Shown: positions 2,691 through 50,316 of the stretch, piece by piece | How the letters are laid out: every line of letters starts with the position of its first letter | Numbering within the stretch: position 1 is the stretch's first letter | DNA from: a virus | Lineage: Duplodnaviria; Caudoviricetes | Reading direction: 5' to 3' (one strand) | IMG/VR virus record: IMGVR_UViG_3300028048_000038 | Location: 128,001-192,000 of that record | DNA length: 64,000 nt | Made by a program: the position numbers and the translations under genes | The notes under the pieces: model-generated | Told to the model about the DNA's origin: nothing | What the model saw: only the letters and a program-made list of their open reading frames with translations | Databases searched by the model: none

Positions 2691-2826
2691 GTGCGGTAGA
2701 GGAGTCGAACCTCTGTTTACGGCTTGGAATGCATAATTTTTTCAATAATACATCTGCTGTCTATTTCCTAACGGAAACGTTAAAAAACTTTTAAAGCGTT
2801 GTCCTAGACCACTAGACGAACCGCAC
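2691..2826 (-). tRNA. tRNA (UCC, Gly anticodon) interrupted at position 29/30 by a 64-nt ACAGCA-stem insertion (2733-2796)
   Basis: Acceptor GTGCGGT/ACCGCAC, D arm, T arm AGAGG TTCGACT CCTCT; removing the insert gives a perfect anticodon arm ACGGC ATTCCAA GCCGT. Confidence 0.75.
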
Positions 2827-2924
2827 AGTTGTCTGCTACAAACGATGAACGTAGGTCTCACAGACTATGATGGTCAACCGAAGTCTTATTAAGTATTGCG
2901 CACTACACCATCATGACTTTTTGA

Positions 2925-2995
2925 ATCTCCTAGAGGAATCGAACCTCTCTTCCGACTTGCGATGCCACGTGTCCTAACCGATAGACGAAGGAGAT
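2925..2995 (-). tRNA. tRNA-like gene, irregular anticodon arm (loop ATCGCAA)
   Basis: Acceptor ATCTCCT/AGGAGAT, canonical T arm, Glu/Asp-type D arm. Confidence 0.55.
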
Positions 2996-3205
2996 ATAAA
3001 ATGGGGAAATGATTTTAACTAGTATGTTGCTCACTTCCCCAAAGGCAACGGCTGTACTCAGCCAACGAGACGGTTTATTTTCACCCACAGAGCCGAAATC
3101 CGACAACCCACTCAGCCCCTTAAGACAAGCCAATCTTACGAGTTTTTGAAGACACTTCACCCTAATGTCTTGCTAAAAAAGGAAAACTCGCCCATCCTTG
3201 TATTA

Positions 3206-4512: not shown

Positions 4513-4528
4513 TATATCATCTTTTATG

Positions 4529-8262: not shown

Positions 8263-8577
8263 ATTTCCTTGTTTTTAAATTTCTGATGTAAAGATACGAA
8301 AAAAAGTTGAACCAACCAAATGATTAATTCAACTTTAACACTCATTAACCTTACACTTGTTCTCGGCTCTATTCACCTTGTTGTAAAAGTTAATCCTTTT
8401 CAACTTAATAGTAAATTAGATTTACCTGTATCAACCATGAAGGTATCCTCTTAACCATCAAGGAACTAGGGCAAGGGACTAATCCTTGCACCGCATTACT
8501 GCTTCATCTGCCATTTCTTACATGGCTTGCGCTTGTCTAACCTATTTCAGTATTTCAATGAATACACCAAGCCGTAG

Positions 8578-8653
8578 TGAGCATAGTAGGATTCGAACCC
8601 ACGCCTTTTACGGTCCTAGAAGCCGTTGCAATCGACCACTCTGCCATATGCCC
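8578..8653 (-). tRNA. tRNA with CUA anticodon (candidate amber suppressor)
   Basis: GGGCATA/TATGCTC acceptor, ACGGC TTCTAGG ACCGT anticodon arm, canonical T arm. Confidence 0.65.
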
Positions 8654-10008: not shown

Positions 10009-11166
10009 TCACTGTTGTGCTTCAGTTAGAATTCTATAGCCCTCATTTTTGATATTAATTGCAGCGTTTATATCTCTATCAATACGTTCACCGCAATTAG
10101 GGCATATCCAATATCGTTCACTAAGTTTAAGGTCTTGCTTGACATATCCACAATGACTACAAGTTTTAGAGCTAGGGAAGAACCTATCAATCTCAACAAC
10201 CTTGACACCGTTCCAAGATGATTTATACTGTAGTTTGGTTTTAATCTCGTTAAACGAAGACTCTTGTATACTTTTTGCTAGGTGATGATTACTTACCATT
10301 CCTTTGACATTTAAGTTTTCAAGACATACAGCACTAGTTCTGCTATCATAAGCAATGTCGTGTGTAACCTTGTCAATGAACGCCTTCTTCCTGTTATTTA
10401 TTTTATTCTTGAATTTAGCTAGCTTCAACCTAGCTTTTTCTTTATTCCTAGAACCATTTTTCTTCTTCGATAGCCTTCTGCAAAGCATTTTATATTTTTT
10501 GTCCTCTTTGCTGTCAGTCCTCAATGAATTGTATTTAGTTCCATCACTAGTGATAATTGAATTTTTAACGCCTAAATCAATACCAATAACGGTATCATAT
10601 GTGACTTCTTTTTTTTCAAGCGGCTCTGTTGTATCCTTTACCAAAATCGAAATAAAGTATTGGTCTGACTTGTTATATGACAATGTAGCTTGCTTAATTT
10701 CTCCGTTGAATTTTCTATGAAGCCTAGCATCTATCAAACTTGTCAATTTTGGTATCTTCACCTTATTCTCAGCCCAGAACACCTTAATCCCTTGGTATGT
10801 CGTATATGACCCACTGAAACTCTTTTTTTTGAAGGCTGGACCACCAGCATCGGTTTTAACTCCTTGTTTTCTAGCTTTACAAGCCCTAAAGAAATTATTG
10901 TAGGAAGCATCCAAATATGTAGATGTCCATATTAGAGACTTTGCATCAACACTTTTAAGCCACGAGGTTTCTTCATTCTTTTTGAGAGAAGGTAATTCTC
11001 TAGCTACATTGTATTGACAACTTAAGTGCTCTCCAGTCTCTTTAAAACACTTCTTAATTTTATCAAGAGCATAATTGTAAAACCATCTATTAGCACCTAC
11101 GTTTTGTCTTATAAACTGTTTTTGCTCCTCAGTTGGATAAATTCTATACTTATATGCTCTTAACAT
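10009..11166 (-). CDS. tnpB: TnpB/Cas12f-like RNA-guided endonuclease
   Basis: RAYKYRIYPT N-terminus, RuvC-I GIDLG, RuvC-II CLENL, Zn finger CSHC/CPNC, RuvC-III DRDINAAINI; no TnpA nearby. Confidence 0.93.
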   Translation of the reverse strand: MLRAYKYRIYPTEEQKQFIRQNVGANRWFYNYALDKIKKCFKETGEHLSCQYNVARELPSLKKNEETSWLKSVDAKSLIWTSTYLDASYNNFFRACKARKQGVKTDAGGPAFKKKSFSGSYTTYQGIKVFWAENKVKIPKLTSLIDARLHRKFNGEIKQATLSYNKSDQYFISILVKDTTEPLEKKEVTYDTVIGIDLGVKNSIITSDGTKYNSLRTDSKEDKKYKMLCRRLSKKKNGSRNKEKARLKLAKFKNKINNRKKAFIDKVTHDIAYDSRTSAVCLENLNVKGMVSNHHLAKSIQESSFNEIKTKLQYKSSWNGVKVVEIDRFFPSSKTCSHCGYVKQDLKLSERYWICPNCGERIDRDINAAINIKNEGYRILTEAQQ

Positions 11167-11195: not shown

Positions 11196-11250
11196 CGGAA
11201 GCTAGTTAAACCTAGAGTTGCAATCTATGTAATATTGCTGTGAGCTTCCT
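11196..11250 (-). ncRNA. ACAGCA-stem RNA carrying a bare Cys(GCA) anticodon-like hairpin
   Basis: GGAAGCT-C-ACAGCAA...TAGA TTGCAAC TCTA...AGCTTCC. Confidence 0.65.
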
Positions 11251-12255: not shown

Positions 12256-12418
12256 ATATAATATAAATATTAAGCCGTATAAAAAACGATTGGATGAAAA
12301 CTTTCATTTTACTAGCCACAATTAGTAGCCAAAACTTCTCCAATCTACTATAGCATGTTAACCTACTATAATAAGTAAGATGCTTATCATACGTGGAAGC
12401 ATCATAATCACGGTACGC

Positions 12419-12543
12419 ATGGGCAAAGGGATTCGAACCACTTGACCGTTTCATTATCACTTAAAGCATCAATGCGTTCCGAAGTCGGCATTGTGTATAG
12501 CTTAAATCGCAACAAAATTACTCTACCGCTGAGTTATGCCCAT
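12419..12543 (-). tRNA. tRNA-like gene with ~50-nt hairpin insertion in the anticodon arm
   Basis: ATGGGCA/TGCCCAT acceptor, D and T arms; insert contains CAATGC..TTCG..GCATTG hairpin. Confidence 0.55.
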
Positions 12544-13699: not shown

Positions 13700-13763
13700 C
13701 GGAAACTCTTGTTTACCCCTAAATTCACAGTTTAGTATAAAATTCACTTGCTGTTAGTTTCCT
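13700..13763 (-). ncRNA. ACAGCA-stem RNA carrying a bare His(GUG) anticodon arm
   Basis: GGAAAC-TA-ACAGCAA...CTAAA CTGTGAA TTTAG...GTTTCC; own promoter near 13785. Confidence 0.7.
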
Positions 13764-14147: not shown

Positions 14148-14324
14148 TTTTCAAAGAACTTTTTTTCTTTTATAAAATAATCAGCTACACGAACCTCTTC
14201 AATGTACTTATGAAAGATTCCCTTCCACGTATGTTATACAGATTAATACATGACTTTTATCCTAATATAGCATAACTTTACTGTAAAAGTTTACTTCATC
14301 ATCCAACCCTGACTGATTATTAAG

Positions 14325-14780: not shown

Positions 14781-14790
14781 ATTATGTTTG

Positions 14791-14864
14791 TGTTGATGAA
14801 GGGAGTTGAACCCCTGACCTCGTGAGTATCAGTCACGTGCTCTAACCTACTGAGCTACATCAAC
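14791..14864 (-). tRNA. tRNA-Ile (GAU)
   Basis: Canonical cloverleaf, loop CTGATAC. Confidence 0.9.
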
Positions 14865-15669: not shown

Positions 15670-15803
15670 CGGAAACGTTTTTAACATTTTAAGTTGCTCT
15701 ACCGGACTGAGCTACAAGGAGCTTACACCCCTCGATGGGATTTGAACCCATGACCTACTGCTTACAAGGCTTATTAAAAAATAACCATTGCTGTCTGTTT
15801 CCT
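15670..15803 (-). ncRNA. circularly permuted tRNA-Thr(UGU)-like RNA clamped by ACAGCA stem
   Basis: Order: GGAAAC-AG-ACAGCAA, GC CTTGTAA GCAGT, V, T arm, 3' acceptor CGAGGGG, loop, 5' acceptor CTCCTTG, D arm, ACT, GTTTCC. Confidence 0.8.
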
Positions 15804-20462: not shown

Positions 20463-20586
20463 CGGTGACGTGTGGACTCGAACCACAGACCAACGGATTA
20501 ACAATCGACATTCATAATCTGCTGTGGGTTACGCACACGAGGTAACACGTGAATTTACGCTGCTCTACCAACTGAGCTACGTCACC
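20463..20586 (-). tRNA. tRNA-Asn (GUU) interrupted at 29/30 by a 51-nt ACAGCA-stem insertion (20507-20557)
   Basis: Canonical acceptor, D and T arms; removal gives GCGGA TTGTTAA TCCGT; insert has GTTAC/GTAAC-CC-ACAGCAG. Confidence 0.8.
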
Positions 20587-20595: not shown

Positions 20596-20727
20596 GGGTA
20601 CATAAAACCAACATTTCAACCCCTCCAGTTTATTTAATTCTCTTTGCGGAGGGGGTGGGAATCGAACCCACGTTACACAAATTGACAGTCTGTTTGAAGT
20701 GTAAATTTATACTTGCTGTGTGTACCC
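20596..20727 (-). ncRNA. circularly permuted tRNA-Asp(GUC)-like RNA clamped by ACAGCA stem (D arm lost)
   Basis: GGGTAC-AC-ACAGCAA, ACAGA CTGTCAA TTTGT, T arm, CCCCTCC-G, linker, GGAGGGG, GTACCC. Confidence 0.75.
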
Positions 20728-24151: not shown

Positions 24152-24224
24152 AATAAAATACTCTTTATTATAAATATAACAAAAATCTTTAAATTAACAA
24201 TAGATGTTAATCATTTTTTTTTTG

Positions 24225-24296
24225 CTGGAACGGAGAATTTCGAAATCTCGACCCCTTGTTTAACAGACAAGCGCTCTGCCTCTGAGCTACGTTCCA
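24225..24296 (-). tRNA. tRNA-Asn (GUU)
   Basis: CTTGT CTGTTAA ACAAG; G73. Confidence 0.88.
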
Positions 24297-26213: not shown

Positions 26214-26218
26214 ATGAA

Positions 26219-26509
26219 GGAAGCGTAGGTTTATTCTAGTTGGAGATTCAGCTATTACGATGAGGGCGATATTTCAAGGTTGACTCCACAACTCCTTGCG
26301 AAGATGCTTCAACGTCTCTCGCCTATCCTACACTCACATGCCTTTGCTACTATCTTCACAAGAGTAATACGTTACCTCAACCCTTTGCCTAGTGTGATTA
26401 AAGATTAGAGAGGTACGCTTACTGGTTGCCTTTGCAAGTGTTTAATTGGAAACCTCTAAAATCAGCAATCGTTAGTAACAAGATGATTAAGTACATGCTG
26501 TACGCTTCC
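26219..26509 (-). ncRNA. large (291 nt) ACAGCA-stem RNA with non-tRNA cargo
   Basis: 5' GGAAGCGT-ACAGCAT ... 3' ACGCTTCC. Confidence 0.6.
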
Positions 26510-26542: not shown

Positions 26543-26693
26543 AGGAACGGTCAATTTATTGTCATGACTAGACATTCGCTCCGAAGAGCATAGATAAGTG
26601 CCTCGCAATTATGATTTAGTGCTTCGCTTATCCTCATTTACGAATCTAATTAACAAAATGCTTTTAAATAAGTAAATGCTGCTGTACGTTCCT
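26543..26693 (-). ncRNA. 151-nt ACAGCA-stem RNA with non-tRNA cargo
   Basis: 5' AGGAAC-GT-ACAGCAG ... 3' GTTCCT. Confidence 0.6.
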
Positions 26694-28897: not shown

Positions 28898-29036
28898 CGG
28901 AAACATTTTATTCTCCAATAGCCGTGTTTACCAATTCCACCAACGCCCTCGTTAAGATAGACGTGTGGGAGTCGAACCCACAAACCGTTACGGTAGCAAT
29001 TTACAATAATAACTCTTTATTTGCTGGATGTTTCCT
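28898..29036 (-). ncRNA. circularly permuted tRNA-Tyr(GUA)-like RNA clamped by the stem motif (CCAGCAA variant)
   Basis: GGAAAC-AT-CCAGCAA, loop TTGTAAA, V arm ACCG TAA CGGT, T arm, ACGTCT, linker, GGGCGT, D arm, GTTTCC. Confidence 0.75.
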
Positions 29037-32244: not shown

Positions 32245-32332
32245 GGGAACTATAACTTTGATAGGCTCGAACTATCTATTTTCATTTTGGTCAAATAAAA
32301 AATTATCCATTTTAAACTTGCTGTAAGTTCCC
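32245..32332 (-). ncRNA. ACAGCA-stem RNA with residual T arm
   Basis: GGGAAC-TT-ACAGCAA...GATAG TTCGAGC CTATC...GTTCCC. Confidence 0.65.
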
Positions 32333-32792: not shown

Positions 32793-32913
32793 CGGAAACA
32801 TTTATCCATCTTAGCTATCACGCCAACCTTGGTAGCGTGAGTTGGACTCGAACCAACGACCCTTAAATTATCAGTTTAATGCTATACCTATTAATACTTG
32901 CTGTATGTTTCCT
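32793..32913 (-). ncRNA. circularly permuted tRNA-Ile(GAU)-like RNA, opened in the D loop, clamped by ACAGCA stem
   Basis: GGAAAC-AT-ACAGCAA, GGTATAGC-A, TTAAA CTGATAA TTTAA, T arm, TCACGCT-ACCA, linker, GGCGTGA-TA-GCTA, GTTTCC. Confidence 0.8.
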
Positions 32914-33339: not shown

Positions 33340-33455
33340 CGGAATCCTTTAACTTTAGGTAGATATGGACTCGAACCATAATCTCTTGGTAAAATCCAAG
33401 GCTCTAACCAATTGAGCTATCCATCTGATGTTATATCCATTGCTGTAAGATTCCT
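33340..33455 (-). ncRNA. ACAGCA-stem RNA enclosing a whole unpermuted tRNA-like cloverleaf (6-nt anticodon loop)
   Basis: GGAATC-TT-ACAGCAA...AGATGGA, D arm, CTTGG ATTTTA CCAAG, T arm, TCTACCT...GATTCC. Confidence 0.7.
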
Positions 33456-35156: not shown

Positions 35157-35231
35157 GGGAACATTTTTTAACCGTACTCTTAAAACCCAAAATTAATTAC
35201 TTGTTAATAGAAATACTTGCTGTGTGTTCCC
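35157..35231 (-). ncRNA. minimal ACAGCA-stem RNA
   Basis: GGGAAC-AC-ACAGCAA...GTTCCC. Confidence 0.65.
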
Positions 35232-41409: not shown

Positions 41410-42768
41410 TCATCTTCTCTTGTCCTCTGCTGCCTTGATGTTCATCTTTGGCTTCATGAAGAACTTGATGTCAACTGTTGGCTCAATGAGTTTCACAATC
41501 TCATCCATTGGCTTGTATGCAGCTGGAGCCTCATCCAATGTTTTCTCGTCAGCAGTGGTGGTATAGATACCAGCATCTGCCATCTGCTTCTTGAACTCCT
41601 CAACATCCAAGGTCTTGTTAGCCTTATCACGAGACATAGAACGTCCACAGCCATGCGGGGCTGTCCAGTTCCAATCCTCGTTTGACTTACCTTCACAGAT
41701 TGAGATACCATCCCTCATATTGAATGGGATAATTAACTTCTCTCCCTCATAGGCACGAATAGCACCCTTACGAATCATCATATTTGGCTTTCCACTCAAC
41801 GCCTTAAAGTCATAATCGATGTAATTATGAGTAGTGGCAATAAAGTCAATTGGCTTGCCACCATCTGACATCTTACGATAAATTTCAACCAACTGCTCGT
41901 GGATAACCTCGTGGTTCAACTTGGCATATACTTGAGCAATCAAGACATCGACAAGATAACCCATAAGTTTGTCACCGTTCAAGTATCCTGGAATCTTACG
42001 TGATAAGTACTCCTCTCTTGCTGCATCAATCTCTGCCTTAATCTTCTTTCTATCAGTATTCTTCTCCTTGACCTTATCCTCAAGCATCTTCATTTCCTCT
42101 CTAGAAACTACCATGCTTCTTGCTATCTTATCCCAATAGTTGAATACAGCCAAGCCCAACTTACGTGAGCCACAGTGTACGCACATGCAGTACTTACCAA
42201 GGTCATCATTAACATCGTACTCCACAAAATGATTACCACCACCCACAGAGCCAATAGACTTCATGAAATCACCATAAGGAATGTGTACATGTTTACACCA
42301 ATTCTCTAAATCCATTTCTGAGTTGAAATAGATTGCATAGTCCACAAACTTAGGATAAAGTGAAACCAATCTATCCATAGCTGAATTAATAGCCTTTGCA
42401 ATTCGCTTCCAATCAATCTTGGACTTGTCATTGATGGTGAATCCAAACGGAATATCCTTGCGAATCTTGTGCTCAAACTCCTTCATCTTATCCTCGACAA
42501 TAGGCTTGTCGAAGAAAGTGGCAGAGATTGTACAACCAATGTCACAACCTACATGCTCAGGATTAACGTGGTCTGTTTCAATGTTAACTGGGCATGAGAA
42601 TCCAATCACAATGCCCTTACCATCGTGACAATCAGGCATGATACGAATCTTTCTATCCTTAAATGCCCTACAATCAGCAATCCTATATATCGTTGACAAT
42701 GCGGTCTCCTCCACATTGTCGGTAAAGACCTTTATGTACTTACAATACTGTCCTTTAATTTCTAACAT
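41410..42768 (-). CDS. rtcB: RtcB-family RNA 2',3'-cyclic phosphate/5'-OH ligase
   Basis: MPDCH, VGCDIGC, GGGNHFVE, HCGSR, HNY, RKGA, PHGCGR, DEAP.AYK. Confidence 0.95.
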   Translation of the reverse strand: MLEIKGQYCKYIKVFTDNVEETALSTIYRIADCRAFKDRKIRIMPDCHDGKGIVIGFSCPVNIETDHVNPEHVGCDIGCTISATFFDKPIVEDKMKEFEHKIRKDIPFGFTINDKSKIDWKRIAKAINSAMDRLVSLYPKFVDYAIYFNSEMDLENWCKHVHIPYGDFMKSIGSVGGGNHFVEYDVNDDLGKYCMCVHCGSRKLGLAVFNYWDKIARSMVVSREEMKMLEDKVKEKNTDRKKIKAEIDAAREEYLSRKIPGYLNGDKLMGYLVDVLIAQVYAKLNHEVIHEQLVEIYRKMSDGGKPIDFIATTHNYIDYDFKALSGKPNMMIRKGAIRAYEGEKLIIPFNMRDGISICEGKSNEDWNWTAPHGCGRSMSRDKANKTLDVEEFKKQMADAGIYTTTADEKTLDEAPAAYKPMDEIVKLIEPTVDIKFFMKPKMNIKAAEDKRR

Positions 42769-42777: not shown

Positions 42778-43659
42778 CTAAAATAACAAACTACCCTTAT
42801 CGTCCCACTGTGTGTATAGCTTGCAGTTTGGACGAAGAATTAGATACTTCAAAGCTTGTTTTTCCTCGCTCTTAGCCATACAATCCTCGTCAATGACTGT
42901 TGATATACCCATTACTGAATAACGTCTGCTACCATATTCCAATGTATCTAGATAACGTCCATTTTTAAGAATATAATCATTAAGACCACCAAAATATGAT
43001 GTTGTTTTAACGTTATTTTCCTTAATCCACGTTGTCTGAGGTGTGTCGCTACCATCAGTGTACATCTTGCGGAATGTAATTTGGTCAGCACCCAATACCT
43101 TGCTGCAATATTCGAATATTGGCTCATATTCTCCATTTGGCTCTTCATAAAGATAAAGCCACTTTGTCACATTGAGGGACAAACGAAGGTTCATACCATA
43201 TTCTTTAATTTTAGAACAAAGCCACTTCAAGTTAATGCGTGTATGCCCACCATTAATAATATCACTATTGATTTCATCGTTGTTTAAACAAGACACTGAA
43301 AGGCTGATTGTGGTAATGCCGTTATTGCGAAGACAATTAAGTGTATACTCATCAATCTTAGCTCCAGTGGTTTGAATCTCAATGTTTCTAAACGGCATTG
43401 TCAATTCAGAATTCATTCTAGCAAATTTGCCAATGAATGCCATGTTCTGCTGTGGCTCACCTTGCCCAGTGAGCATAACGGTATTGCACCCATTATCCCT
43501 AGCAAAAGCCATACGATTCTTATAACTCTCTACATGAAAATAGTCATCAGTAGAAATCAAATCATCATATTCCTCTTTATGCATGCGGCTTACACAGAAC
43601 TTACACTGATTCATGCAGCCATGTGTAGGAACTACGATTGATAACGATTGTATATTCAT
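42778..43659 (-). CDS. radical SAM protein
   Basis: CMNQCKFC (CxxxCxxC), TGQGEP. Confidence 0.9.
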   Translation of the reverse strand: MNIQSLSIVVPTHGCMNQCKFCVSRMHKEEYDDLISTDDYFHVESYKNRMAFARDNGCNTVMLTGQGEPQQNMAFIGKFARMNSELTMPFRNIEIQTTGAKIDEYTLNCLRNNGITTISLSVSCLNNDEINSDIINGGHTRINLKWLCSKIKEYGMNLRLSLNVTKWLYLYEEPNGEYEPIFEYCSKVLGADQITFRKMYTDGSDTPQTTWIKENNVKTTSYFGGLNDYILKNGRYLDTLEYGSRRYSVMGISTVIDEDCMAKSEEKQALKYLILRPNCKLYTQWDDKGSLLF

Positions 43660-43994
43660 TTTCTAAGGTTCTCCCAAACAAACTTCAATAATTCCATAGG
43701 TGCTTCTTTAAGAAAGATGTTGCACCACTGTCCCTCTCTGTTCTTGGTGTTGATTCTGACATTATCCAATGAGATATCACCATCTAAAGGTTTATCACTA
43801 GTTACAGAAACATACACCACTTTTGTAGATTCAAAGTGTTTGTCAATTTTAACTTTCTTGGTATATACCTTGTCTTCCATTGGGTCATCACCCAATATAT
43901 CGGCTTTGGATGTTTCAAGTCCATTTACCATGACAAAACCTAAGATACCATTCTCCAACTTAAATCTTTCACTAAACTTATCCATACCATTCAA
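43656..43994 (-). CDS. hypothetical protein
   Basis: Overlapping operon ORF. Confidence 0.6.
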   Translation of the reverse strand: MNGMDKFSERFKLENGILGFVMVNGLETSKADILGDDPMEDKVYTKKVKIDKHFESTKVVYVSVTSDKPLDGDISLDNVRINTKNREGQWCNIFLKEAPMELLKFVWENLRK

Positions 43995-44248
43995 AATTTA
44001 ATTGTACTTACATATCCCTTATCCTTAAATTTGTTATAGACATCTTGGGTAAGGTCATGTTCCTCTTGTTTCATTTGGTTTACAATCCCTTGCAAAGCAT
44101 CAATACACTCCCTAGAGTTGCGAAGATTGGCAATGGCATAATCAAAGCTGCCTTTATCCTCACCATCCCTTCGTACTTCTTCTTTAGTCTGTTCAAGACG
44201 CATATTGAAATTCCCAATACATGCATCTACGTATTTTTTATCTATCAT
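43991..44248 (-). CDS. hypothetical protein
   Basis: Overlapping operon ORF. Confidence 0.6.
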   Translation of the reverse strand: MIDKKYVDACIGNFNMRLEQTKEEVRRDGEDKGSFDYAIANLRNSRECIDALQGIVNQMKQEEHDLTQDVYNKFKDKGYVSTIKF

Positions 44249-45401
44249 ATAACTTAATTTTACTTATTAACTCATCAACATTTGTAGTGTTCTCATATGG
44301 AAAATCTATTTTTTCTTCGCTATAATACAATATTTTAACTCCATTGTCTTCACAAAGTTTTCTTTTCTTTTCGTCCAAACCAATGCGATATTTGAGTTTA
44401 TCTTCTCCACCGAAATAATCCACAGAATAAAAATGTTGCCCACCTTGACATTCTATGGCAATTTTGTATTGTGGCAAATAAAAATCTAATGTTAGTTCTT
44501 CTAACCAAGGTAAAGTTTTTCTTCTAGCATCATATCTATATTCAATATTATTGTCTATTAATGCTTTTTCAACATTGCATTCAGCATGGCTCATTTTACA
44601 TTTTGGACATCCTTTACTACCTAAGTGATTCGCTGGCGTACAAGTAAAATCTCCGTGTTTTGGGCAAGTAATTATTACATCAGAATGCATTTTCTTATAT
44701 ACCACTTTTGAATAATCATACTTATCACCATATTTTTTAATAAAACGACTTATAATCGTTTCTTGTGATAATTTCTTTTTATTTGACCTTTCTTTTATAC
44801 CACATTCCTTACAGCCCTTGCCACACAAGTGGTTGTGCGGAGTTTGCCAAAAATCTCCGTGAATTGGACAAGTGATTATTATCCTACCTTTTTCATCACG
44901 AGAATTTAAATCAGTTTTATTATAGATGTATTTCATGTTGTGAACTTTAGTGGCTTTGGCGATGAAATCTTCTGTTTTTAAACAACGTTTGTTAGCAGTA
45001 GTAATTTTTCCGCATTCTTTACAGCCTTCACCACCTAAATGTTTATTTGGTGTTTGCCAAAATTCGCCATGAATAGGACAAATAATACATACATCTTGAT
45101 TTGAACGTTTATATTCTACTTTTGAATAGTCATACTTATCACCATGAACTTTTTTAGCTTTTTCAATAAATTCATTGGTGTTACTAAATAAACATTTGTC
45201 CTTTCTTTCTTCCCAGCACTTCGGACACCCACAACCATGTGTGTGAGAGTTAGGTCTTTGCCAGAACTCACCATGTTTAGGGCATATTATACACACTCTA
45301 CCTTTCTCGTCACGATGCTCTAAATCTACCTTAGAATAATCATATTTCTCTCCATGAATATCTCTAGATTTTTCTATAAAAATATCAGTCCTATTTATCA
45401 T
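44238..45401 (-). CDS. putative homing endonuclease with four zinc-binding repeats and a C-terminal PD-(D/E)XK-like domain
   Basis: Repeats HG.KYDYSK...I.CP.HG.F...P..H..G.GC..C; LDFYLP...IAIECQG.QH; likely start MINRTD. Confidence 0.8.
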   Translation of the reverse strand: MINRTDIFIEKSRDIHGEKYDYSKVDLEHRDEKGRVCIICPKHGEFWQRPNSHTHGCGCPKCWEERKDKCLFSNTNEFIEKAKKVHGDKYDYSKVEYKRSNQDVCIICPIHGEFWQTPNKHLGGEGCKECGKITTANKRCLKTEDFIAKATKVHNMKYIYNKTDLNSRDEKGRIIITCPIHGDFWQTPHNHLCGKGCKECGIKERSNKKKLSQETIISRFIKKYGDKYDYSKVVYKKMHSDVIITCPKHGDFTCTPANHLGSKGCPKCKMSHAECNVEKALIDNNIEYRYDARRKTLPWLEELTLDFYLPQYKIAIECQGGQHFYSVDYFGGEDKLKYRIGLDEKKRKLCEDNGVKILYYSEEKIDFPYENTTNVDELISKIKLYDR

Positions 45402-45464
45402 ATAACATAACCATTTATACATATAAATATCAATTACATAATAAAAAAGACTGATAAATTATCC

Positions 45465-46433
45465 TTAATGTAATAAAATATTTCCATCTTTAAGATTTAT
45501 ACAAACCTCAAGATTTCTACGTTTAAATTCGCTATTCCAAGAGCGCATACAAACCTTACGTACAGAGTCCACTCCATATAAATCTCCAAGATTTGGTACA
45601 AACTCTTTGTCACTCTTCTTGCAAGCCTCCATTCTACGCTGCTTAACATCTTCATTTTCAACATCAAATACAGTATTTTTAATGGATTCTGTTAAGCCAT
45701 CAGTAGCATACATTGGTTTAATCTTCTCTGAAAGACCGTCCCATTTGCTTAATACGTGGTCAATCTCATTATAAGTATATCCTGGCATTATCTGTTCAGC
45801 ATCACCTCCAGCTTTAACCCCATTACCATCTGTAGGTATGAGTGCAATCGACTGCTCAAGTGCCTTAGAATCTTTGAAAACATTTTCCTTCATCCACTTT
45901 GCAAGAGCGTAAACTTCTGTTTTCCAAAGTTCACCAATTGGGTTTATATCACCAACATCACCATGTAGTGTCCAAAAGCCTGTTAGCCACTCAGTTTTAT
46001 TTGATGTGCCCATTACAATACCTCCAACCTTTGAAGCGATATCGTACAACGTAATCATACGCAAACGTGCCTTGATGTTACCTTGTGAAATTGGTGTCTT
46101 CTCCTTACCGCTAGCCTCAGTACAGAACTTCTCCATTACCTCATATGGCTCTTGTAGGTTAACCACCTTGAAAGTGTCACAGAACTCGGTGCCAGCAGCC
46201 TTGGCTGCATCATTCTCCACATCTGCATTGGTTGAGCATGGAAGAGATACGCCAATAAGGGGAATGTTTCCAGCCTTACATAGTGCAGCTACTACTGTGG
46301 AGTCAATACCACCACTTAATCCAAGAACTACAACCTTAATATGATTCTGATTTACATAACTCTTAATTCCCTCTACAAGAATCTTAAATACAACTTCCAT
46401 ATCTAATGGAATTGGACGATACGTTTCTACCAT
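45465..46433 (-). CDS. nadE: NH3-dependent NAD+ synthetase
   Basis: LGLSGGIDS, GNIKARLRM, GTSNKTE...G..T.HGD. Confidence 0.93.
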   Translation of the reverse strand: MVETYRPIPLDMEVVFKILVEGIKSYVNQNHIKVVVLGLSGGIDSTVVAALCKAGNIPLIGVSLPCSTNADVENDAAKAAGTEFCDTFKVVNLQEPYEVMEKFCTEASGKEKTPISQGNIKARLRMITLYDIASKVGGIVMGTSNKTEWLTGFWTLHGDVGDINPIGELWKTEVYALAKWMKENVFKDSKALEQSIALIPTDGNGVKAGGDAEQIMPGYTYNEIDHVLSKWDGLSEKIKPMYATDGLTESIKNTVFDVENEDVKQRRMEACKKSDKEFVPNLGDLYGVDSVRKVCMRSWNSEFKRRNLEVCINLKDGNILLH

Positions 46434-46435
46434 AT

Positions 46436-46969
46436 TTATTTATTGTTTATTGCTTTCCTTACTTTATCCTTTCTAAATGCTTCAATGTCAACATCCATCT
46501 TTATCTTGCGACACTTATCAGCAAGTTCCTTAACTTCATCAATAGTCAATGCTGCCTCCAACTGTATATCTGCCATAGATGGAATCGTAGATGGTGCTGA
46601 AACCATAAACCTTGGTTCAAGATTCTTATTAATCACAATTCTACCCAATAATTTTCCAAGTGAACTAAATGATTCTTGAAGACGTTTGATATTATAAGTG
46701 TCATAAGGTTTTAAATCAACCTTAACATCATCCAAAGATAATTTTTCCATCTTACTAGCAAAGTCCATAAGAGAATCATAGAATTTATCACCGAATCTAT
46801 CAGCATATTCGGTTATACCATCTAATTCTTCTTTTACATCATTTTGAAGGTCGGCAATCCTTCTTTCTTCAGCTTCTTTTTTTTCGTTGCGGTCAGATAG
46901 TACCGATTGCGCAAGACATAAAAAAACAATTCCTAAACTTATTAATAGAATATATAAAACACCCATAAT
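46436..46969 (-). CDS. hypothetical membrane-anchored protein
   Basis: N-terminal TM helix; start approximate. Confidence 0.55.
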   Translation of the reverse strand: MMGVLYILLISLGIVFLCLAQSVLSDRNEKKEAEERRIADLQNDVKEELDGITEYADRFGDKFYDSLMDFASKMEKLSLDDVKVDLKPYDTYNIKRLQESFSSLGKLLGRIVINKNLEPRFMVSAPSTIPSMADIQLEAALTIDEVKELADKCRKIKMDVDIEAFRKDKVRKAINNK

Positions 46970-47040
46970 TACATTATTTTTTTGCAAAGATACGAAAAAA
47001 AACTGAGACTACCAAATGATAATCTCAGTTTTAATATTAT

Positions 47041-48333
47041 TTAACCATTTGCAAGAATCAGTGTATAATCTTTGCGTCCTTTGGTTAACAATAGATATTT
47101 ACCATTAATCAAGTTACTAGTATCAATAACGGCTTTTTCATTGGTTGCTTTCTCCTTATTGATAGAGAAACCATTAGCCTTAATCAGTTTTCTAGCCTCA
47201 GACTTTGACGGTACTTTATCATGCATTGTTGCAAGGTCTAATACTGTAAGTCCACTTGTAAACTGCTCCTTGGATACTTCGACCTTTGACACGCCATTCA
47301 TTGCAGCAAGAAGGGACTTTTCATCAATAGAGGCAAGTTGTTCTGTAGTACCCTTACCAAACAGAATCTCAGTAGCTTCTACTGCCTTGTTATACTCTTC
47401 CTCAGAGTGAACCATGCAAGTCATGTACTTTGCAAGCTCTTTCTGTAATACACGAGCTGAAGGCTGCTCACGATGTTTCTCAATTAGAGCATTAATCTCG
47501 TCTAATGGAATAAGAGTAAATAGTTTAATGAAACGTTCTGAGTCTGTATCTGACTGATTAAGCCAAAATTGATAGAACTCATATGGACTTGTCTTTTCGG
47601 CATCAAGCCAAATGTTACCCTTCTCTGACTTACCAAACTTTGTACCATCTGCCTTGGTTACAAGAGGCCAAGTAATCATACATGCATCAGTACCGCCAAC
47701 CATCTTACGGATAAGCTCAATACCAGTTGTACCGTTTCCAAATTGGTCACTACCACCAATCTGAAGTTTACAATTATATTTCTTATATAATTCTACGAAA
47801 TCGTAACCTTGGATAAGCTGATATGTAAACTCAGTGAATGACATTCCGTTACCATCACGTTCAAGACGTTTCTTGACGGAATCCTTTGCCATCATATAAT
47901 TCACGCTAATACACTTACCAACCTCACGTGCGAAATCAATAAATGAGAAGTTTTTCATCCAATCATAGTTATTAACCATAATTGCACCATTCTCATCCTT
48001 TGAATCGAAATCAAGAAGTTTGCTAACTTGTGCATGAATTCCCTTAATGTTGTGTTCTACAGTTTCAGCACTAAGGAGTTTTCTTTCTTCTGACTTAAAC
48101 GATGGGTCTCCAATAAAGGCTGTTGCACCGCCTAAAAGAACAATAGGCTTATGCCCATAGGACTGAAGCAACTTAGCAGTTGTAAAGGCAAGCAAATGCC
48201 CTAAGTGAAGACTATCAGCAGTAGGGTCAGTTCCCACATAGAATGTTGTTGGCGTTTTTAACAATTCCTCTAAGTTTCCAGAGAGACTTGCTATAAGTCC
48301 TCTCTCTTTAAGTTCTGAAAGTAATGGATTCAT
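47041..48333 (-). CDS. tyrS: tyrosine--tRNA ligase
   Basis: DPTADSLHLGH, QIGGSDQ.GN, KFGKS, C-terminal S4 domain. Confidence 0.97.
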   Translation of the reverse strand: MNPLLSELKERGLIASLSGNLEELLKTPTTFYVGTDPTADSLHLGHLLAFTTAKLLQSYGHKPIVLLGGATAFIGDPSFKSEERKLLSAETVEHNIKGIHAQVSKLLDFDSKDENGAIMVNNYDWMKNFSFIDFAREVGKCISVNYMMAKDSVKKRLERDGNGMSFTEFTYQLIQGYDFVELYKKYNCKLQIGGSDQFGNGTTGIELIRKMVGGTDACMITWPLVTKADGTKFGKSEKGNIWLDAEKTSPYEFYQFWLNQSDTDSERFIKLFTLIPLDEINALIEKHREQPSARVLQKELAKYMTCMVHSEEEYNKAVEATEILFGKGTTEQLASIDEKSLLAAMNGVSKVEVSKEQFTSGLTVLDLATMHDKVPSKSEARKLIKANGFSINKEKATNEKAVIDTSNLINGKYLLLTKGRKDYTLILANG

Positions 48334-48642
48334 CTTTATTTTATAATTTTAAATTGATTCACTGAATACAAGCAGTCTCTTTTTACTGAGCACAGCATTA
48401 GTTATCTCCATCATTTGAATTTTACTGATGGAGTTTTTCTTATATGAATTCTCAGTAAACTTGGATTTCTTACCCTTATTTTTCTTTTTCTTCTTTTTAA
48501 AGTAATTAAAGAACATATATACACTATTTTACTTTTGCAAAGATATGAAAAAAAAATCAATAAACAAAATCATTTAACGTTATTTAATAAAAATGACCAT
48601 CAACTCTCGTCAATGGTCATTTTATATATAAGTAGGAACTCA

Positions 48643-50316
48643 TTAAATATTAATGTAGTTCAAAATCTCTTGGCTAAGAGCCTTTTCAACTAGCTCTTCG
48701 GCAGTCATCTGACGCACCTCACCTGTTTTCTCGTCAATCACTTTAGTATCTCCCATCAGCATTGTGATGATTGAAGGGTCAAAGCCAGAAAGGAATGTAC
48801 ATCCTGGTTCTATCGACTTACCCTCAAAGTGAGTAACACCATGCCTTGAAGCTACATCCCACCAAATGAATTTCATGTTATTCACGAACTCCTCTGGGAA
48901 CACTGTCTTCAATGACCTTACTGAGTACTCATAGTTGGTTGGCTCAGTACGTCTTGAGTACCATCCTCCAGTTGGGTTAAACTCCATATCACTTACAACC
49001 AATATACTTGTACAATACTGCTCAAGTGGAATCTCAGGGTGTTCCTTTCTAATCTTAATAATCTCGTCAACCGCAGATTGGAAGTTAGTACCACCGCAAC
49101 CCACGCTTGGAAGATTCATTATTCTATCGCAGAATGAATCACCCTTCATGTCATAAGGTGTTGACACATTATCGAACATGATGACCTTGTTATGGAATGG
49201 ACCAGTGTTAAGGTCAGCAAAGAACAGTGCAAGAGAACTTGCAACATCTGAACAGTAAATATCCTTTAAGCCAGTAACTGGCTGGTTCATACTTCCACTA
49301 GTATCAAGGCAACACCATACATTCTCAGTAATTCTACCGCCATCACGTGCCTTGTCTACAAGACCCTTAAACTGTGCATCAAGGGTGTGCTTAACCTCTA
49401 GAGGAATTGTCATAGAACCTCTACGATATCCACGTGAACCACGTGCCTCACGAAGACGTTTTGCAAGCTCGAAGACATAACCAGTGAATTTTGCTACTGG
49501 CTGCTGCATAATCCACTCTGTGTAGTTATCCTTCAAACCGTGATTTGAAAGGAACTTACTTGTTACAAGGAGGTTAAGAGCACGACCTGGAATGTGATTC
49601 CAATTCAAATCCTTATAGTTACGAGAACAAATCAACTTTTGGAAGTCGTGTGCTCTACCGCTTGACTTCATCTTATTGTACTCCTTATAGGTAATACCCA
49701 TCTGATTAGCAAATGCCTTTGCCAAATCATTAGTGATGGTAGTCCACTCAGTTTTGCACTTGCTCTGTGACTTGATACGAGGCATATACTTCTTAATCAA
49801 GTCAACATGTGTGTCACAAAGCAAACCTTGTGCAATAACCTCAAAGAGTGCCTTTTGATTTAAGCACTTGATGTTATCCTTGATGTCGTAGTACATGAGT
49901 GTCCACAAGTCCTTCCAAGAACCAACAAGAGGCAATGCCCAAATGTTCTTGTAGAATGCGTCCTTTTGCTCTTGAGCAATCCAAAGCAAACGCTTGAATG
50001 ACTCGTCACGAGCACCTTGACCATTCTGAACCTTATCAGTCTCATTATCGGCATTCACCTTAACCTTGCGTGTAACCATACGAAGGTAGAATGGGAAACG
50101 AAGAGCTGCACTTGGATTCTCAGCCCAAATTGTAGCTTGGTCAGCAAATACTTCTGCTAGTGTACGTCCTCTGAAGTTACCAGCCTTACCGAATTGGTCA
50201 ACAATGGCACTACCGCTAGAAATAAGAGTTTTTGCCCCGTTTTCGGTAGTTGTAAAACTCTCGAATCCCACTGCATCAATAAATGCGTTTGTCTTTGTTG
50301 CTGTTTTTGTATTCAT
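48643..50316 (-). CDS. TROVE-like/vWA protein (DUF2828-like, Ro60-related architecture)
   Basis: TENGA N-terminus, G.G.R, GSWKDL, helical region, then MIDAS CLDTSGSM, GTNF, VSDMEF. Confidence 0.75.
   Translation of the reverse strand: MNTKTATKTNAFIDAVGFESFTTTENGAKTLISSGSAIVDQFGKAGNFRGRTLAEVFADQATIWAENPSAALRFPFYLRMVTRKVKVNADNETDKVQNGQGARDESFKRLLWIAQEQKDAFYKNIWALPLVGSWKDLWTLMYYDIKDNIKCLNQKALFEVIAQGLLCDTHVDLIKKYMPRIKSQSKCKTEWTTITNDLAKAFANQMGITYKEYNKMKSSGRAHDFQKLICSRNYKDLNWNHIPGRALNLLVTSKFLSNHGLKDNYTEWIMQQPVAKFTGYVFELAKRLREARGSRGYRRGSMTIPLEVKHTLDAQFKGLVDKARDGGRITENVWCCLDTSGSMNQPVTGLKDIYCSDVASSLALFFADLNTGPFHNKVIMFDNVSTPYDMKGDSFCDRIMNLPSVGCGGTNFQSAVDEIIKIRKEHPEIPLEQYCTSILVVSDMEFNPTGGWYSRRTEPTNYEYSVRSLKTVFPEEFVNNMKFIWWDVASRHGVTHFEGKSIEPGCTFLSGFDPSIITMLMGDTKVIDEKTGEVRQMTAEELVEKALSQEILNYINI

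What the first reader, a model, noticed from the sequence alone, without database searches (positions are those of the whole stretch)
2691..50316. Candidate new system: 13 RNAs sharing a stem-NN-ACAGCA module grafted onto tRNA parts, with a Ro60-like protein and RtcB
Seen: a 5-8 bp helix (GGAAAC/GTTTCC, GGGTAC/GTACCC, GGAATC/GATTCC, GGAAGC/GCTTCC, GGGAAC/GTTCCC, GTTAC/GTAAC) followed about 2 nt later by ACAGCA(A/G) recurs on the minus strand. Copies lie at 2733-2796, 11196, 13700, 15670, 20507-20557, 20596, 26219, 26543, 28898 (CCAGCAA), 32245, 32793, 33340 and 35157. The stem sequence covaries while ACAGCA stays nearly fixed, as expected of a protein-binding RNA site. The cargo varies: intact tRNAs, permuted tRNAs, bare anticodon arms or non-tRNA domains. 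Known: bacterial YrlA Y RNAs are permuted tRNA-like modules attached to a stem bound by Ro60/Rsr (TROVE + vWA), often encoded with RtcB. The window encodes a helical + MIDAS-vWA protein (48643-50316) and RtcB (41410-42768). Inference: a phage-expanded Y-RNA-like repertoire that, unlike YrlA, keeps anticodon loops. It may act as anticodon-nuclease decoys, protected tRNA precursors matured by cleavage and RtcB ligation, or tethering adaptors.
Basis: partly seen in the sequence, partly recalled or inferred. Interest (0 to 1): 0.95.

Follow-up and report, generated by a model that had tools for sequence, protein, structure and literature searches.

The report
Ro60-like phage protein's partner RNAs
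Thirteen small RNA genes hidden among the tRNA genes of a 410-kb cattle-rumen phage share one short "handle" that, in very different phages and bacteria, sits beside the gene of a ring-shaped Ro60-like protein also encoded here, so they are most likely that protein's partner RNAs, most of them carrying tRNA look-alike parts.

Summary
In detail: all 13 copies exist at the stated places, all on the minus strand of the tRNA island.

- **Eleven clamp copies.** A 6-8 bp clamp helix joins the RNA's two ends, with (A/C)CAGCA(A/G/U) 0-2 nt after its 5' strand. It encloses 30-270 nt of variable cargo.
- **Two permuted copies.** The same handle, circularly permuted, is inserted into the anticodon stem of an otherwise complete tRNA.
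- **Cargo.** Mostly tRNA parts: anticodon arms, T-arm/acceptor hairpins, permuted or whole tRNA bodies.
- **Protein.** The 557-aa protein (48643-50316) is predicted with high confidence to have the Ro60 fold.
- **Co-occurrence.** The same handle lies directly beside this gene family, co-oriented, in a cyanophage, a mycobacteriophage, an Enterococcus phage, a Felix O1-type phage and Saprospiraceae genome bins. It was absent from two TROVE-type Ro phages and from T4.
- **Closest RNA design.** Not YrlA but the Class I RNAs of Dictyostelium (Rfam RF01414), matched below threshold.

Binding, discrete transcripts and function are untested, and RtcB linkage is loose. This scan has met the same family before in many other genomes. 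I found no paper describing it.

The parts
11197..11249 (-). M11, 53 nt. Clamp GGAAGCU/AGCUUCC, ACAGCAA. Cargo is one anticodon-arm-like hairpin with loop UUGCAAC (GCA, Cys type).
   Evidence: 35.0 bits. A GCA loop is kept in the minimal modules of four genomes.
13701..13762 (-). M10, 62 nt. Clamp GGAAACU/AGUUUCC, ACAGCAA. Cargo is an anticodon-arm-like hairpin with loop CUGUGAA (GUG, His type). It has its own TAnnTTTG promoter box 31 nt upstream.
   Evidence: (43.0 bits). The G001 copy in the same flanks has loop CUGUAAA (GUA).
15671..15802 (-). M9, 132 nt. Clamp GGAAAC/GUUUCC. Cargo is a permuted tRNA-like body (T-arm, loop-closed acceptor stem, D-arm) as in YrlA. It starts 1 nt after the CCA of the upstream tRNA.
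   Evidence: Rfam YrlA 36.2 bits, below the gathering score of 69, matching only the tRNA-like part. R1 18.7 bits. ARAGORN finds a tRNA across duplicated cargo.
20463..20586 (-). P1, 124 nt. A tRNA-Asn(GUU)-like body with a 51-nt insert (20507-20557) between positions 29 and 30 of the anticodon stem. The insert is a circularly permuted handle: GUUAC-loop-GUAAC-CC-ACAGCAG.
   Evidence: Rfam tRNA 47 bits. Parsed from the sequence. The G001 counterpart has GUUGC/GCAAC, a compensatory change.
20596..20727 (-). M8, 132 nt. Clamp GGGUACA/UGUACCC. Cargo is a hairpin with loop CUGUCAA (GUC), a T-arm and a loop-closed acceptor-like stem.
   Evidence: (29.0 bits). The G003 counterpart has loop CUGUUAA (GUU).
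26219..26509 (-). M7, 291 nt. Clamp GGAAGCGU/ACGCUUCC, ACAGCAU. Cargo is a large domain that is not tRNA-like.
   Evidence: No Rfam match. Short RNA-library contigs of two studies coincide with it: 26229-26511 and 26218-42.
26543..26693 (-). M6, 151 nt. Clamp AGGAAC/GUUCCU, ACAGCAG. Cargo is not tRNA-like.
28899..29035 (-). M5, 137 nt. Clamp GGAAACAU/AUGUUUCC, variant box CCAGCAA. Cargo is a permuted tRNA-like body with T-arm GUGGG-UUCGACU-CCCAC.
   Evidence: (15.3 bits).
32245..32332 (-). M4, 88 nt. Clamp GGGAACU/AGUUCCC. Cargo is an A/U-rich hairpin plus a T-arm-like hairpin.
   Evidence: (37.2 bits; not in the training set).
32794..32912 (-). M3, 119 nt. Clamp GGAAACAU/AUGUUUCC. Cargo is a permuted tRNA-like body with anticodon loop CUGAUAA (GAU) and a T-arm. 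It has its own promoter box 23 nt upstream.
   Evidence: (35.3 bits; not in the training set).
33341..33454 (-). M2, 114 nt. Clamp GGAAUCUU/AAGGAUUCC. Cargo is a complete, unpermuted cloverleaf with an irregular anticodon loop.
   Evidence: ARAGORN 33356-33426. Rfam tRNA 45.8 bits. R1 18.6 bits.
35157..35231 (-). M1, 75 nt. Clamp GGGAACA/UGUUCCC. Cargo is hairpins with a loop holding UUUGGGU (the type of a Pro-UGG anticodon loop; a 7-nt loop in five relatives).
   Evidence: (41.9 bits).
2691..2826 (-). P2, 136 nt. A tRNA(UCC)-like body with a 64-nt insert (2733-2796) in the anticodon stem. The insert holds the permuted handle GUUUCC-GUUA-GGAAAU-AG-ACAGCAG.
   Evidence: an identical handle hairpin in G001.
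48643..50316 (-). 557-aa DUF2828 + DUF7788 protein. It is predicted to form a Ro60-like helical-repeat ring closed by a vWA domain with MIDAS motif DTSGSM (D338, S340, S342 invariant in 73 homologs).
   Evidence: Pfam. Alignment. AlphaFold2 pLDDT 92, pTM 0.91. The top 12 Foldseek matches in the PDB are all Ro60/TROVE chains aligned at full length. The profile search's best PDB sequence hits are Ro60.
41410..42768 (-). RtcB RNA ligase. It is a possible accessory and is not shown to belong to the system.
   Evidence: Pfam RtcB E 4e-56. Found near DUF2828 in only 3 of 17 other loci.

Best explanation
The 13 elements are genes for small structured RNAs of one family. Each has a constant 'handle' and a variable cargo.

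- **Handle.** A 6-8 bp clamp helix, the single-stranded box (N)NACAGCAA on its 5' side, and an A-rich 3' strand.
- **Partner (inferred).** The handle is the docking site for the phage's Ro60-like ring protein (DUF2828/DUF7788, 48643-50316). Together they would form a ribonucleoprotein analogous to Ro60 with Y RNA.
- **Cargo (shown).** It projects from the handle and displays tRNA parts: anticodon arms of Cys, His, Asp, Ile, Pro, Asn and Gly type, T-arm/acceptor hairpins, and whole or permuted tRNA bodies.
- **Function (inferred, less certain).** These cargoes engage proteins that recognise tRNA, most plausibly host anticodon nucleases or tRNA-modifying or repair enzymes. The particle would act as a decoy or tether that protects the phage's large tRNA set. 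RtcB may act as an occasional repair accessory.

Most copies are co-transcribed with tRNAs and must be cut out of precursors. Two have their own Bacteroidetes-type promoter box.
For: **Shown**
- The family is real and non-random.
- A circularly permuted handle sits inside two tRNA bodies, with a compensatory change in a sister phage. The handle therefore works as a folded unit, not as an end signal.
- The protein has the Ro60 fold: pLDDT 92, and the 12 best PDB matches are all Ro60/TROVE at full length (E 1e-8 to 3e-6), while the next matches are vWA domains only. The profile search hits Ro60 first.
- Every large module-bearing phage record encodes the protein.
- Handle arrays lie directly beside the gene in Leptolyngbya phage Lbo-JY46 (5 in tandem), Mycobacterium phage LilDestine (3), Enterococcus phage EFDG1 (2), Felix O1-type phage allfine (3) and five bacterial genome bins, four of them Saprospiraceae.
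- A covariance model of the handle gives 20 hits in 10 of 18 DUF2828 loci. All are co-oriented with the gene and within about 1 kb of it.
- In whole-record scans of four phages the only hits are those beside the gene.
- There are no hits in TROVE-type phages Bxz1 and CcrColossus or in T4.
- Only one hit outside megaphage relatives turned up in 850 kb of unrelated viral loci.

**For the tRNA-directed function**
- Nearly all cargo shows anticodon-type or T-type loops.
- Sister phages swap the displayed anticodon in the same flanks (GUG to GUA; GUC to GUU), and related minimal modules show GUC and UUU.
- From established knowledge, UUU (PrrC) and GUN of Tyr/His/Asn/Asp (colicin E5) are classic anticodon-nuclease targets.
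Against: - No binding, transcript ends or phenotype have been observed. The partnership rests on co-occurrence and fold analogy.
- Here the gene lies 13 kb or more from the nearest module, not adjacent.
- 8 of 18 DUF2828 loci gave no model hit at E <= 0.05. Some are cut contigs, and the model is only moderately sensitive.
- Pfam TROVE does not match the protein.
- In Dictyostelium, the protein shown to bind the look-alike Class I RNA is an RRM protein, Rnp1A/CIBP (PMC7919456), not a Ro-like one.
- RNA data were assembled contigs only, so they show neither ends nor strand.
Confidence: 0.7

Rival explanations
1. The elements are tRNA maturation intermediates: split, permuted or intron-bearing tRNA genes. 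The clamp brings the ends together for cleavage and RtcB ligation (through a circular intermediate for permuted copies), giving functional tRNAs.
For: - P1 and P2 are otherwise regular tRNAs with an insert in the anticodon stem.
- M3, M5 and M9 are permuted tRNA-like bodies.
- RtcB is encoded 6 kb away.
- One RNA-library contig joins 26527 back to 26217 around M7, as a circle or tandem copy would.
Against: - M1, M4, M6, M7, M10 and M11 have no tRNA body to mature.
- The same handle occurs as 50-70-nt stand-alone RNAs beside DUF2828 in phages with no RtcB within 6 kb of the gene.
- The acceptor stems of M8 and M9 are closed by loops, as in YrlA.
- A normal tRNA-Asn exists at 24224-24296.
- The back-joint does not fall on the clamp ends.
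Confidence: 0.1
2. The handle is a processing, stability or termination signal of tRNA operons, read by host RNases or RNA polymerase, and has nothing to do with the Ro-like protein.
For: - Most copies lie directly behind a tRNA or another module.
- Most are followed by a U-rich run, (G/U)(A/U)UUUU.
Against: - The handle also occurs in tandem arrays right behind DUF2828 genes with no tRNA array beside them.
- It is kept inside tRNA bodies, where it marks no end.
- It is absent from the tRNA-rich phage T4 and from Bxz1 and CcrColossus.
- The box ACAGCAA is invariant across phyla with different RNases.
Confidence: 0.07
3. The handle binds a different protein (a host RNA-binding protein or nuclease), and the Ro-like protein acts in the same pathway without touching the handle.
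For: In Dictyostelium the look-alike Class I RNA DdR-21 is bound directly by the RRM protein Rnp1A/CIBP (PMC7919456; preprint 10.1101/2020.04.05.026054).
Against: - DUF2828 is the only gene seen next to the handle in all of the distant lineages examined.
- Hosts range from cyanobacteria to actinobacteria, so a shared host partner would have to be universal.
Confidence: 0.1

Closest known systems
Class I RNAs of Dictyostelium (Rfam RF01414; Kjellin et al. 2021, PMC7919456)
   Same: The design is the same: a short stem joins the 5' and 3' ends, a conserved box lies directly after the 5' strand (Rfam consensus GaUcuC-CUUACAGCAA), the 3' side is A-rich, and the rest is variable. RF01414 scores the Leptolyngbya-phage members at 39.3, 30.7, 26.2 and 19.2 bits. 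In whole-record scans its best hits are the modules beside the DUF2828 gene.
   Different: - No phage member reaches the gathering score of 41.5.
- The window's own copies give no hit at E <= 10 or at E <= 1.
- Class I RNAs are 42-65 nt, transcribed singly from DUSE promoters, reported as unique to Dictyostelia, and known to bind an RRM protein.
- The window's copies are 53-291 nt, sit in tRNA operons and carry tRNA parts.
- Common descent is not shown.
Ro60 (Rsr) with Y RNAs, especially YrlA/YrlB of bacteria and phages (Rfam RF02553; Chen et al. 2014, PMC4201824; Thermus phage phiLo Ro60, PMC12135203)
   Same: - A ring protein with a vWA/MIDAS domain is paired with small RNAs whose paired ends form the presumed binding stem and whose other end is a variable module.
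- M9 has YrlA's permuted tRNA-like domain (36.2 bits).
- RtcB is sometimes nearby, as in the Salmonella rsr-yrlBA-rtcBA operon.
   Different: - The protein belongs to another sequence family (PF11443/PF25043, not TROVE PF05731).
- The handle differs: ACAGCAA in a 5' bulge, against the CGAAUGC / ACUUGUCG stem in the YrlA consensus.
- TROVE-type phages lack the ACAGCAA handle.
- Many cargoes keep anticodon loops, which YrlA lacks.
- There are 13 RNAs per genome instead of 1-2.
Permuted and intron-bearing tRNA genes matured through RtcB-type ligation (red alga Cyanidioschyzon, archaea)
   Same: The 3' half comes before the 5' half in M3, M5 and M9. P1 and P2 have inserts in the anticodon arm. RtcB is present.
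   Different: - There is no bulge-helix-bulge motif.
- The insert lies in the stem at 29/30, not at 37/38.
- Acceptor stems are closed by loops.
- Half of the family has no tRNA body.

Membership tests
Dictyostelium Class I RNA (RF01414) | A short stem connects the 5' and 3' ends. | tested here: met
   A 6-8 bp clamp is present in 11 copies, with covariation.
Dictyostelium Class I RNA (RF01414) | A conserved 11-nt motif (Rfam consensus C-CUUACAGCAA) lies next to the 5' stem strand. | tested here: inconclusive
   ACAGCAA is kept in 9 of 13 copies (one as CCAGCAA). The preceding UU is variable here, and is UU in cyanophage and Felix O1-type members.
Dictyostelium Class I RNA (RF01414) | Score at or above Rfam's gathering score (41.5 bits). 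| tested here: not met
   The window has no hit at gathering, at E <= 10 around M10/M11 or at E <= 1 genome-wide. The best relative scores 39.3 bits.
Dictyostelium Class I RNA (RF01414) | Length 42-65 nt, with a single gene behind a DUSE promoter in Dictyostelia. | tested here: not met
   Only M10 (62 nt) and M11 (53 nt) fall in the range. The others are 75-291 nt and sit in phage tRNA operons.
YrlA Y RNA (RF02553) | A tRNA-like domain with T-arm, loop-closed acceptor stem and D-arm. | tested here: met
   Met for M9 only: the full-length model alignment has strong T- and D-arm matches. M8 lacks the D-arm.
YrlA Y RNA (RF02553) | Score at or above the gathering score (69 bits), including the Rsr-binding stem. 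| tested here: not met
   36.2 and 21.8 bits. The stem columns are mismatched.
YrlA Y RNA (RF02553) | Encoded next to a TROVE-domain Ro60/Rsr gene. | tested here: not met
   The window's Ro-like protein gave no TROVE match in Pfam. TROVE phages Bxz1 and CcrColossus have no handle hits.
Ro60 / TROVE proteins | A helical-repeat ring closed by a vWA domain (fold). | tested here: met
   AlphaFold2 pLDDT 92. Foldseek ranks 1-13 are all Ro60/TROVE chains with 553-589 aligned columns and TM 0.35-0.60.
Ro60 / TROVE proteins | MIDAS motif DxSxS in the vWA domain. | tested here: met
   DTSGSM at 338-343. D338, S340 and S342 are invariant in 73 homologs.
Ro60 / TROVE proteins | Sequence membership in Pfam TROVE (PF05731). 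| tested here: not met
   Pfam gives DUF7788, DUF2828 (below its cut-off) and VWA_2 only. Profile against PDB sequences: Ro60 is the best hit, but over the vWA part only, E 3e-4.
Ro60 / TROVE proteins | Binds Y RNA through the terminal stem, and misfolded RNA ends in the central hole. | not testable with these tools
   Needs EMSA, CLIP or a solved structure.

The most novel reading that the evidence does not exclude
The ACAGCAA-handle RNAs of phages and bacteria and the 'Dictyostelia-only' Class I RNAs are one ancient RNA family. Its general partner is the DUF2828 Ro-like ring, so Class I RNAs would be Y-RNA-like cofactors. The uncharacterised protein DDB_G0281243, pulled down with Class I RNA DdR-21, is a candidate to check. 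In phages the particle would be a programmable display of anticodon arms that decoys or senses host anticodon nucleases, with cargo cassettes swapped between sister phages in an arms race.
Probability: 0.15. Interest if true: 0.9.

Novelty: new variant of a known kind. Interest (0 to 1): 0.8.

Why it matters
Ro60 with Y RNA is a classic RNA-surveillance particle, but its bacterial and viral biology is known from only a few systems of the TROVE/YrlA type.

This window adds a second, sequence-distinct Ro-like protein family with its own RNA handle. That family is present in hundreds of phage records (574 INPHARED records carry the gene). Here it has a 13-member repertoire, two members of which carry the handle inside a tRNA body.

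If confirmed, three things would follow:
- A common phage 'DUF' would get a function.
- Many 'pseudo-tRNAs' and odd gaps in phage tRNA arrays would be explained.
- Tractable models would be available (Felix O1, KVP40, Enterococcus Schiekvirus, cluster mycobacteriophages).

It might also explain the Class I RNAs of Dictyostelium, whose mechanism is unknown. The swapping of displayed anticodons suggests a direct role in the conflict over tRNA cleavage between phages and hosts.

Tried and rejected
- **Self-cleaving ribozyme behind tRNAs (HDV-like 'theta', hammerhead, hatchet and others).** Rfam gave no match at gathering or at E <= 5. The only conserved single-stranded box is 7 nt, and the helix covaries freely.
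- **TnpB/IS605 end or omega RNA.** Of the ORFs sent to Pfam, only 10009-11166 is a TnpB, and it merely follows M11.
- **Plain terminators.** Rejected because of the conserved cargo and the permuted copies.
- **Rfam RF01414 on the window itself.** No hit.
- **Genome-scale co-occurrence in bacteria with the RNA model.** This failed technically: only 150 of thousands of first-look candidates are scored, and known modules were missed. No statistic was drawn from it.
- **The search for related loci with the 73-sequence alignment.** A 15-sequence alignment gave 13 loci.
- **RNA evidence.** All runs were assembled contigs, so there are no ends, no strand and no levels. Parts without cover mean nothing.
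- **Does Dictyostelium encode DUF2828, and is DDB_G0281243 such a protein?** Not answerable here. No eukaryote genomes are held, Avesson et al. 2011 is not held, and the protein atlas gave only viral and bacterial clusters. Amoebozoan transcriptome entries (Rhizamoeba, Stereomyxa) carry about 50%-identical homologs of bacterial type, which may be contamination.
- **A hairpin-ACAGCAG at 43453.** It lies inside the radical-SAM ORF and is taken as chance.

Full report
**Setting**

The window is bases 128001-192000 of a 409,537-bp virus record with inverted terminal repeats. RNA-library contigs from bovine gut samples hold it. Nearly all long ORFs lie on the minus strand. Positions 1-37000 form a tRNA island:
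- 37 ARAGORN tRNAs, plus further Rfam tRNA hits.
- A tmRNA at 14322-14780.
- A sub-threshold GOLLD-like RNA at 12560-12990.

Some units carry Bacteroidetes-type TAnnTTTG promoter boxes.

**The observation**

ACAGCA as a bare hexamer is not enriched: 39 sites against 32.6 expected. The composite element is.
- The pattern GGRWDCNNMCAGCA occurs 10 times in the whole genome. All hits are on the minus strand and all lie inside the window. The reversed control gives none.
- Each of the 10 has an exact 6-nt complement of its first six bases 47-285 nt downstream.
- Clamp-closed ACAGCA sites number 13 on the minus strand, against a mean of 1.7 (maximum 5) in 300 simulated sequences.

With one 6-bp variant (26543-26693) this gives 11 'standard' elements, M1-M11 (coordinates under parts). 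Their layout is:
- a clamp 5' strand;
- 0-2 unpaired bases;
- ACAGCA followed by A (9 copies, one of them the CCAGCAA variant), G (3) or U (1);
- 30-270 nt of cargo;
- an A-rich stretch;
- the clamp 3' strand;
- usually (G/U)(A/U)UUUU.

There the clamp is a local hairpin, followed by 2-3 nt and ACAGCAG. The whole unit is inserted between positions 29 and 30 of the anticodon stem of otherwise regular tRNA bodies of the Gly-UCC and Asn-GUU types. This is the circular permutation of the standard layout. In sister phage G001 the hairpin of the Asn copy reads GUUGC/GCAAC instead of GUUAC/GUAAC, a compensatory change. Since the handle is kept where it marks no RNA end, it acts as a folded unit and not as a processing or termination signal.

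**Relatives**

Sister megaphages G001, G002, G003 and G005 each hold 7-11 clustered modules, and G006 and G007 hold them too. All six encode the DUF2828 protein at 55-90% identity where measured.

Among 44 non-redundant modules the clamp takes at least ten different sequences, each with its own complement. Position 15 (A) is kept in 42 of 44, although it was not part of the search pattern.

Flanks and handle can be identical while the cargo is replaced:
- M10 shows loop CUGUGAA (GUG) here and CUGUAAA (GUA) in G001, in the same flanks.
- Related minimal modules show GUC (G003), UUU (G002, G003) and GCA (G005).
- M8 shows GUC here and in G002, and GUU in G003.
- The smallest module keeps a GCA loop in four genomes, while its stem changes.

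**Cargo in the window**

| Cargo type | Copies |
|---|---|
| Bare anticodon-arm-like hairpins | M10, M11; M1 has a UUUGGGU loop |
| Complete cloverleaf | M2 |
| Permuted tRNA-like bodies (ARAGORN finds a tRNA across duplicated cargo) | M3, M5, M8, M9 |
| T-arm-like hairpin | M4 |
| Not tRNA-like | M6, M7 |

M9 matches Rfam YrlA over the full model at 36.2 bits (gathering score 69). Only the T-arm, closed acceptor stem and D-arm match; the stem columns do not. M8 has an anticodon-type hairpin and a loop-closed acceptor stem but no D-arm.

**The protein**

ORF 48643-50316 matches DUF7788 (E 2e-17), DUF2828 (E 6e-6, below its cut-off) and VWA_2 weakly. It does not match TROVE.
- A 73-sequence alignment has invariant D338, S340 and S342 (MIDAS motif DTSGSM) and several invariant arginines.
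- The AlphaFold2 model has pLDDT 92 and pTM 0.91.
- All Foldseek PDB matches ranked 1-13 are Ro60/TROVE chains: Thermus phage phiLo 9kop, Xenopus 1yvr, human 9nfa and Deinococcus 2nvo. They have E 8.5e-9 to 2.8e-6, 553-589 aligned columns and TM 0.35-0.60.
- From rank 14 on, matches cover vWA domains only, at E > 2e-3.
- The sequence profile's best PDB hits are human and Xenopus Ro60, over the vWA part only (E 3e-4 and 1e-3).
- tblastn finds the family in 574 phage records. Mycobacteriophage annotators call it 'Ro-like RNA binding protein'.

**Does the handle travel with the gene?**

I fetched the gene's surroundings in four unrelated phages. Clamp-ACAGCAA modules lie on the gene's strand, directly beside it:
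- Leptolyngbya phage Lbo-JY46: five in tandem, starting 8 nt after the stop codon.
- Mycobacterium phage LilDestine: three, starting 41 nt after the gene.
- Enterococcus phage EFDG1: two, in the 678-nt gap before the gene.
- Felix O1-type phage allfine: three, in the tRNA array that follows the gene.

Five of 13 bacterial loci (four Saprospiraceae bins and one unclassified bin) have them right after the gene, and a sixth, a rumen Bacteroidaceae bin, has one just before it.

I then built a covariance model, R1, from 32 short members. Seven clamp pairs all show changes on both sides.
- **In the window.** R1 recovers the three training copies. It also finds non-training copies M4 (37.2 bits), M3 (35.3), M8 (29.0), M9 (18.7), M2 (18.6) and M5 (15.3).
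- **In DUF2828 loci.** Over 18 loci (211 kb) it gives 20 hits at E <= 0.05, in 10 loci. All are co-oriented with the gene and within about 1 kb of it.
- **In whole phage records.** In the four phages above, the only hits at E <= 0.01 are those beside the gene.
- **In controls.** There are no hits at E <= 0.1 in the TROVE-type Ro phages Bxz1 and CcrColossus, nor in T4.
- **An unplanned positive.** KVP40 was meant as a negative control. It turned out to encode a DUF2828 homolog just downstream of its tRNA array, and it gave the only weak hits.
- **In unrelated viral loci.** In 850 kb that had even been pre-selected for the 5' half of the motif, only one hit fell outside megaphage relatives.

RtcB lies within 6 kb of the gene in 3 of 17 loci and in none of the four phage loci. 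It is therefore an occasional neighbour, not a core part.

**Closest known RNA**

The evalue-mode Rfam scan of the distant loci matched Dictyostelium Class I RNA (RF01414) to the cyanophage modules. Scores were 39.3, 30.7, 26.2 and 19.2 bits, against a gathering score of 41.5. The consensus GaUcuC-CUUACAGCAA...A-rich...GagAuC-UG is the same handle. In whole-record scans RF01414's best hits are again the modules beside the gene. The window's own copies do not score.

Kjellin et al. 2021 (PMC7919456) describe Class I RNAs as 42-65 nt long, with a short stem joining the ends and an 11-nt motif next to the 5' strand. They report them as unique to Dictyostelia, after searching a few eukaryotes and Myxococcus. 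The pull-down partners of DdR-21 were GuaB, NdkC, the RRM protein CIBP/Rnp1A (a direct binder) and DDB_G0281243, of unknown function. I could not check whether the last is a DUF2828 protein.

I found no paper that links Class I RNAs with Y RNAs or Ro, and none that describes an ACAGCAA handle with Ro-like proteins.

**RNA evidence**

Only assembled contigs of metatranscriptome runs were available, so ends, strand and levels cannot be read. Three weak hints concern M7:
- A 283-nt contig of one study covers 26229-26511 exactly.
- A 225-nt contig of another study, at depth 143, covers 26218-26442.
- One contig at depth 329 joins 26527 back to 26217.

**Mechanism**

| Status | Point |
|---|---|
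| Shown | The RNA family and its two topologies |
| Shown | The Ro60 fold prediction |
| Shown | The gene-RNA neighbourhood across distant lineages |
| Shown | The tRNA-like nature and variability of the cargo |
| Inferred | The handle docks on the Ro-like ring as Y RNA stems dock on Ro60, and the cargo presents tRNA features to third parties |
| Speculative | A decoy or tether for anticodon nucleases or tRNA enzymes |

The speculative step rests on the displayed anticodons (GUN of His/Tyr/Asp/Asn, UUU, GCA) and on their swapping between sister phages.

**Earlier notes of this scan**

The same family was noted and followed up in many other genomes, with the same reading and the same Class I resemblance. 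One note records that a later check gave a bold reading low odds. I reached the Ro fold, the co-occurrence and the RF01414 match through my own calls. The 29/30 insert reading came from earlier notes on this window, and I verified it.

Noticed in passing
window 26217-26527: In one bovine metatranscriptome run, a contig at depth 329 joins 26527 back to 26217 ('goes back 311'), around the 291-nt module M7. This could be a circular or tandem RNA form, a strain variant or an assembly artefact. The joint does not fall on the clamp ends.
   Followed up: no
window 12560-12990 (-): There is a sub-threshold but full-length match to GOLLD RNA (62 bits, gathering score 150, E 6e-14). A 126-nt tRNA-like hit lies next to it at 12418-12543.
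   Followed up: no
window 14322-14780 (-): A phage-encoded tmRNA (Rfam 53.4 bits, above the gathering score) lies directly beside tRNA-Ile at 14790-14864.
   Followed up: no
window 8577-8653 (-): A tRNA with anticodon CUA, an amber suppressor type that ARAGORN labels 'Pyl'. It may mean TAG is read through in part of this phage's genes.
   Followed up: no
window 10009-11166 (-): A 385-aa TnpB (HTH_OrfB_IS605, OrfB_IS605 and Cas12f1-like TNB domains) lies immediately downstream of module M11.
   Followed up: partly
window 42778-48333 (-): Between RtcB and the Ro-like gene lie a radical-SAM protein, a zinc-finger/DUF723 protein, a NAD-synthase-like PP-loop enzyme and a full tyrosyl-tRNA synthetase. 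TelA lies further on at 39055-40350.
   Followed up: partly
L160 (Vibrio phage KVP40, NC_005083: 165000-181000): KVP40 was chosen as a negative control, but it encodes a DUF2828 homolog (KVP40.0300, annotated 'RNA-binding protein') just downstream of its tRNA array. It has weak handle candidates with 4-7 bp clamps, including one just upstream of the gene's start. Its 116-124-nt 'pseudo-tRNAs' may be handle-bearing tRNA bodies.
   Followed up: partly
P0148 (EukProt, Rhizamoeba saxonica transcriptome): This 843-aa DUF2828/DUF7788 protein is fused to a 2H phosphoesterase (PF13563, LigT-like) domain. The fusion links the family to RNA-end healing. It may be bacterial contamination of the amoeba data.
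   Followed up: no
L140 5637-5760 (Enterococcus phage EFDG1): A YrlA-like hit (44.9 bits) lies between the two ACAGCAA modules upstream of the DUF2828 gene. My ACAGCA scan found no handle on it, so it may carry a variant handle.
   Followed up: no
modules of window, L129-L137: The displayed anticodon-type loops are biased to GUN (His, Tyr, Asp, Asn), UUU, GCA, GAU and UGG. They are exchanged between sister phages in conserved flanks, as if the cargo were a swappable cassette.
   Followed up: partly
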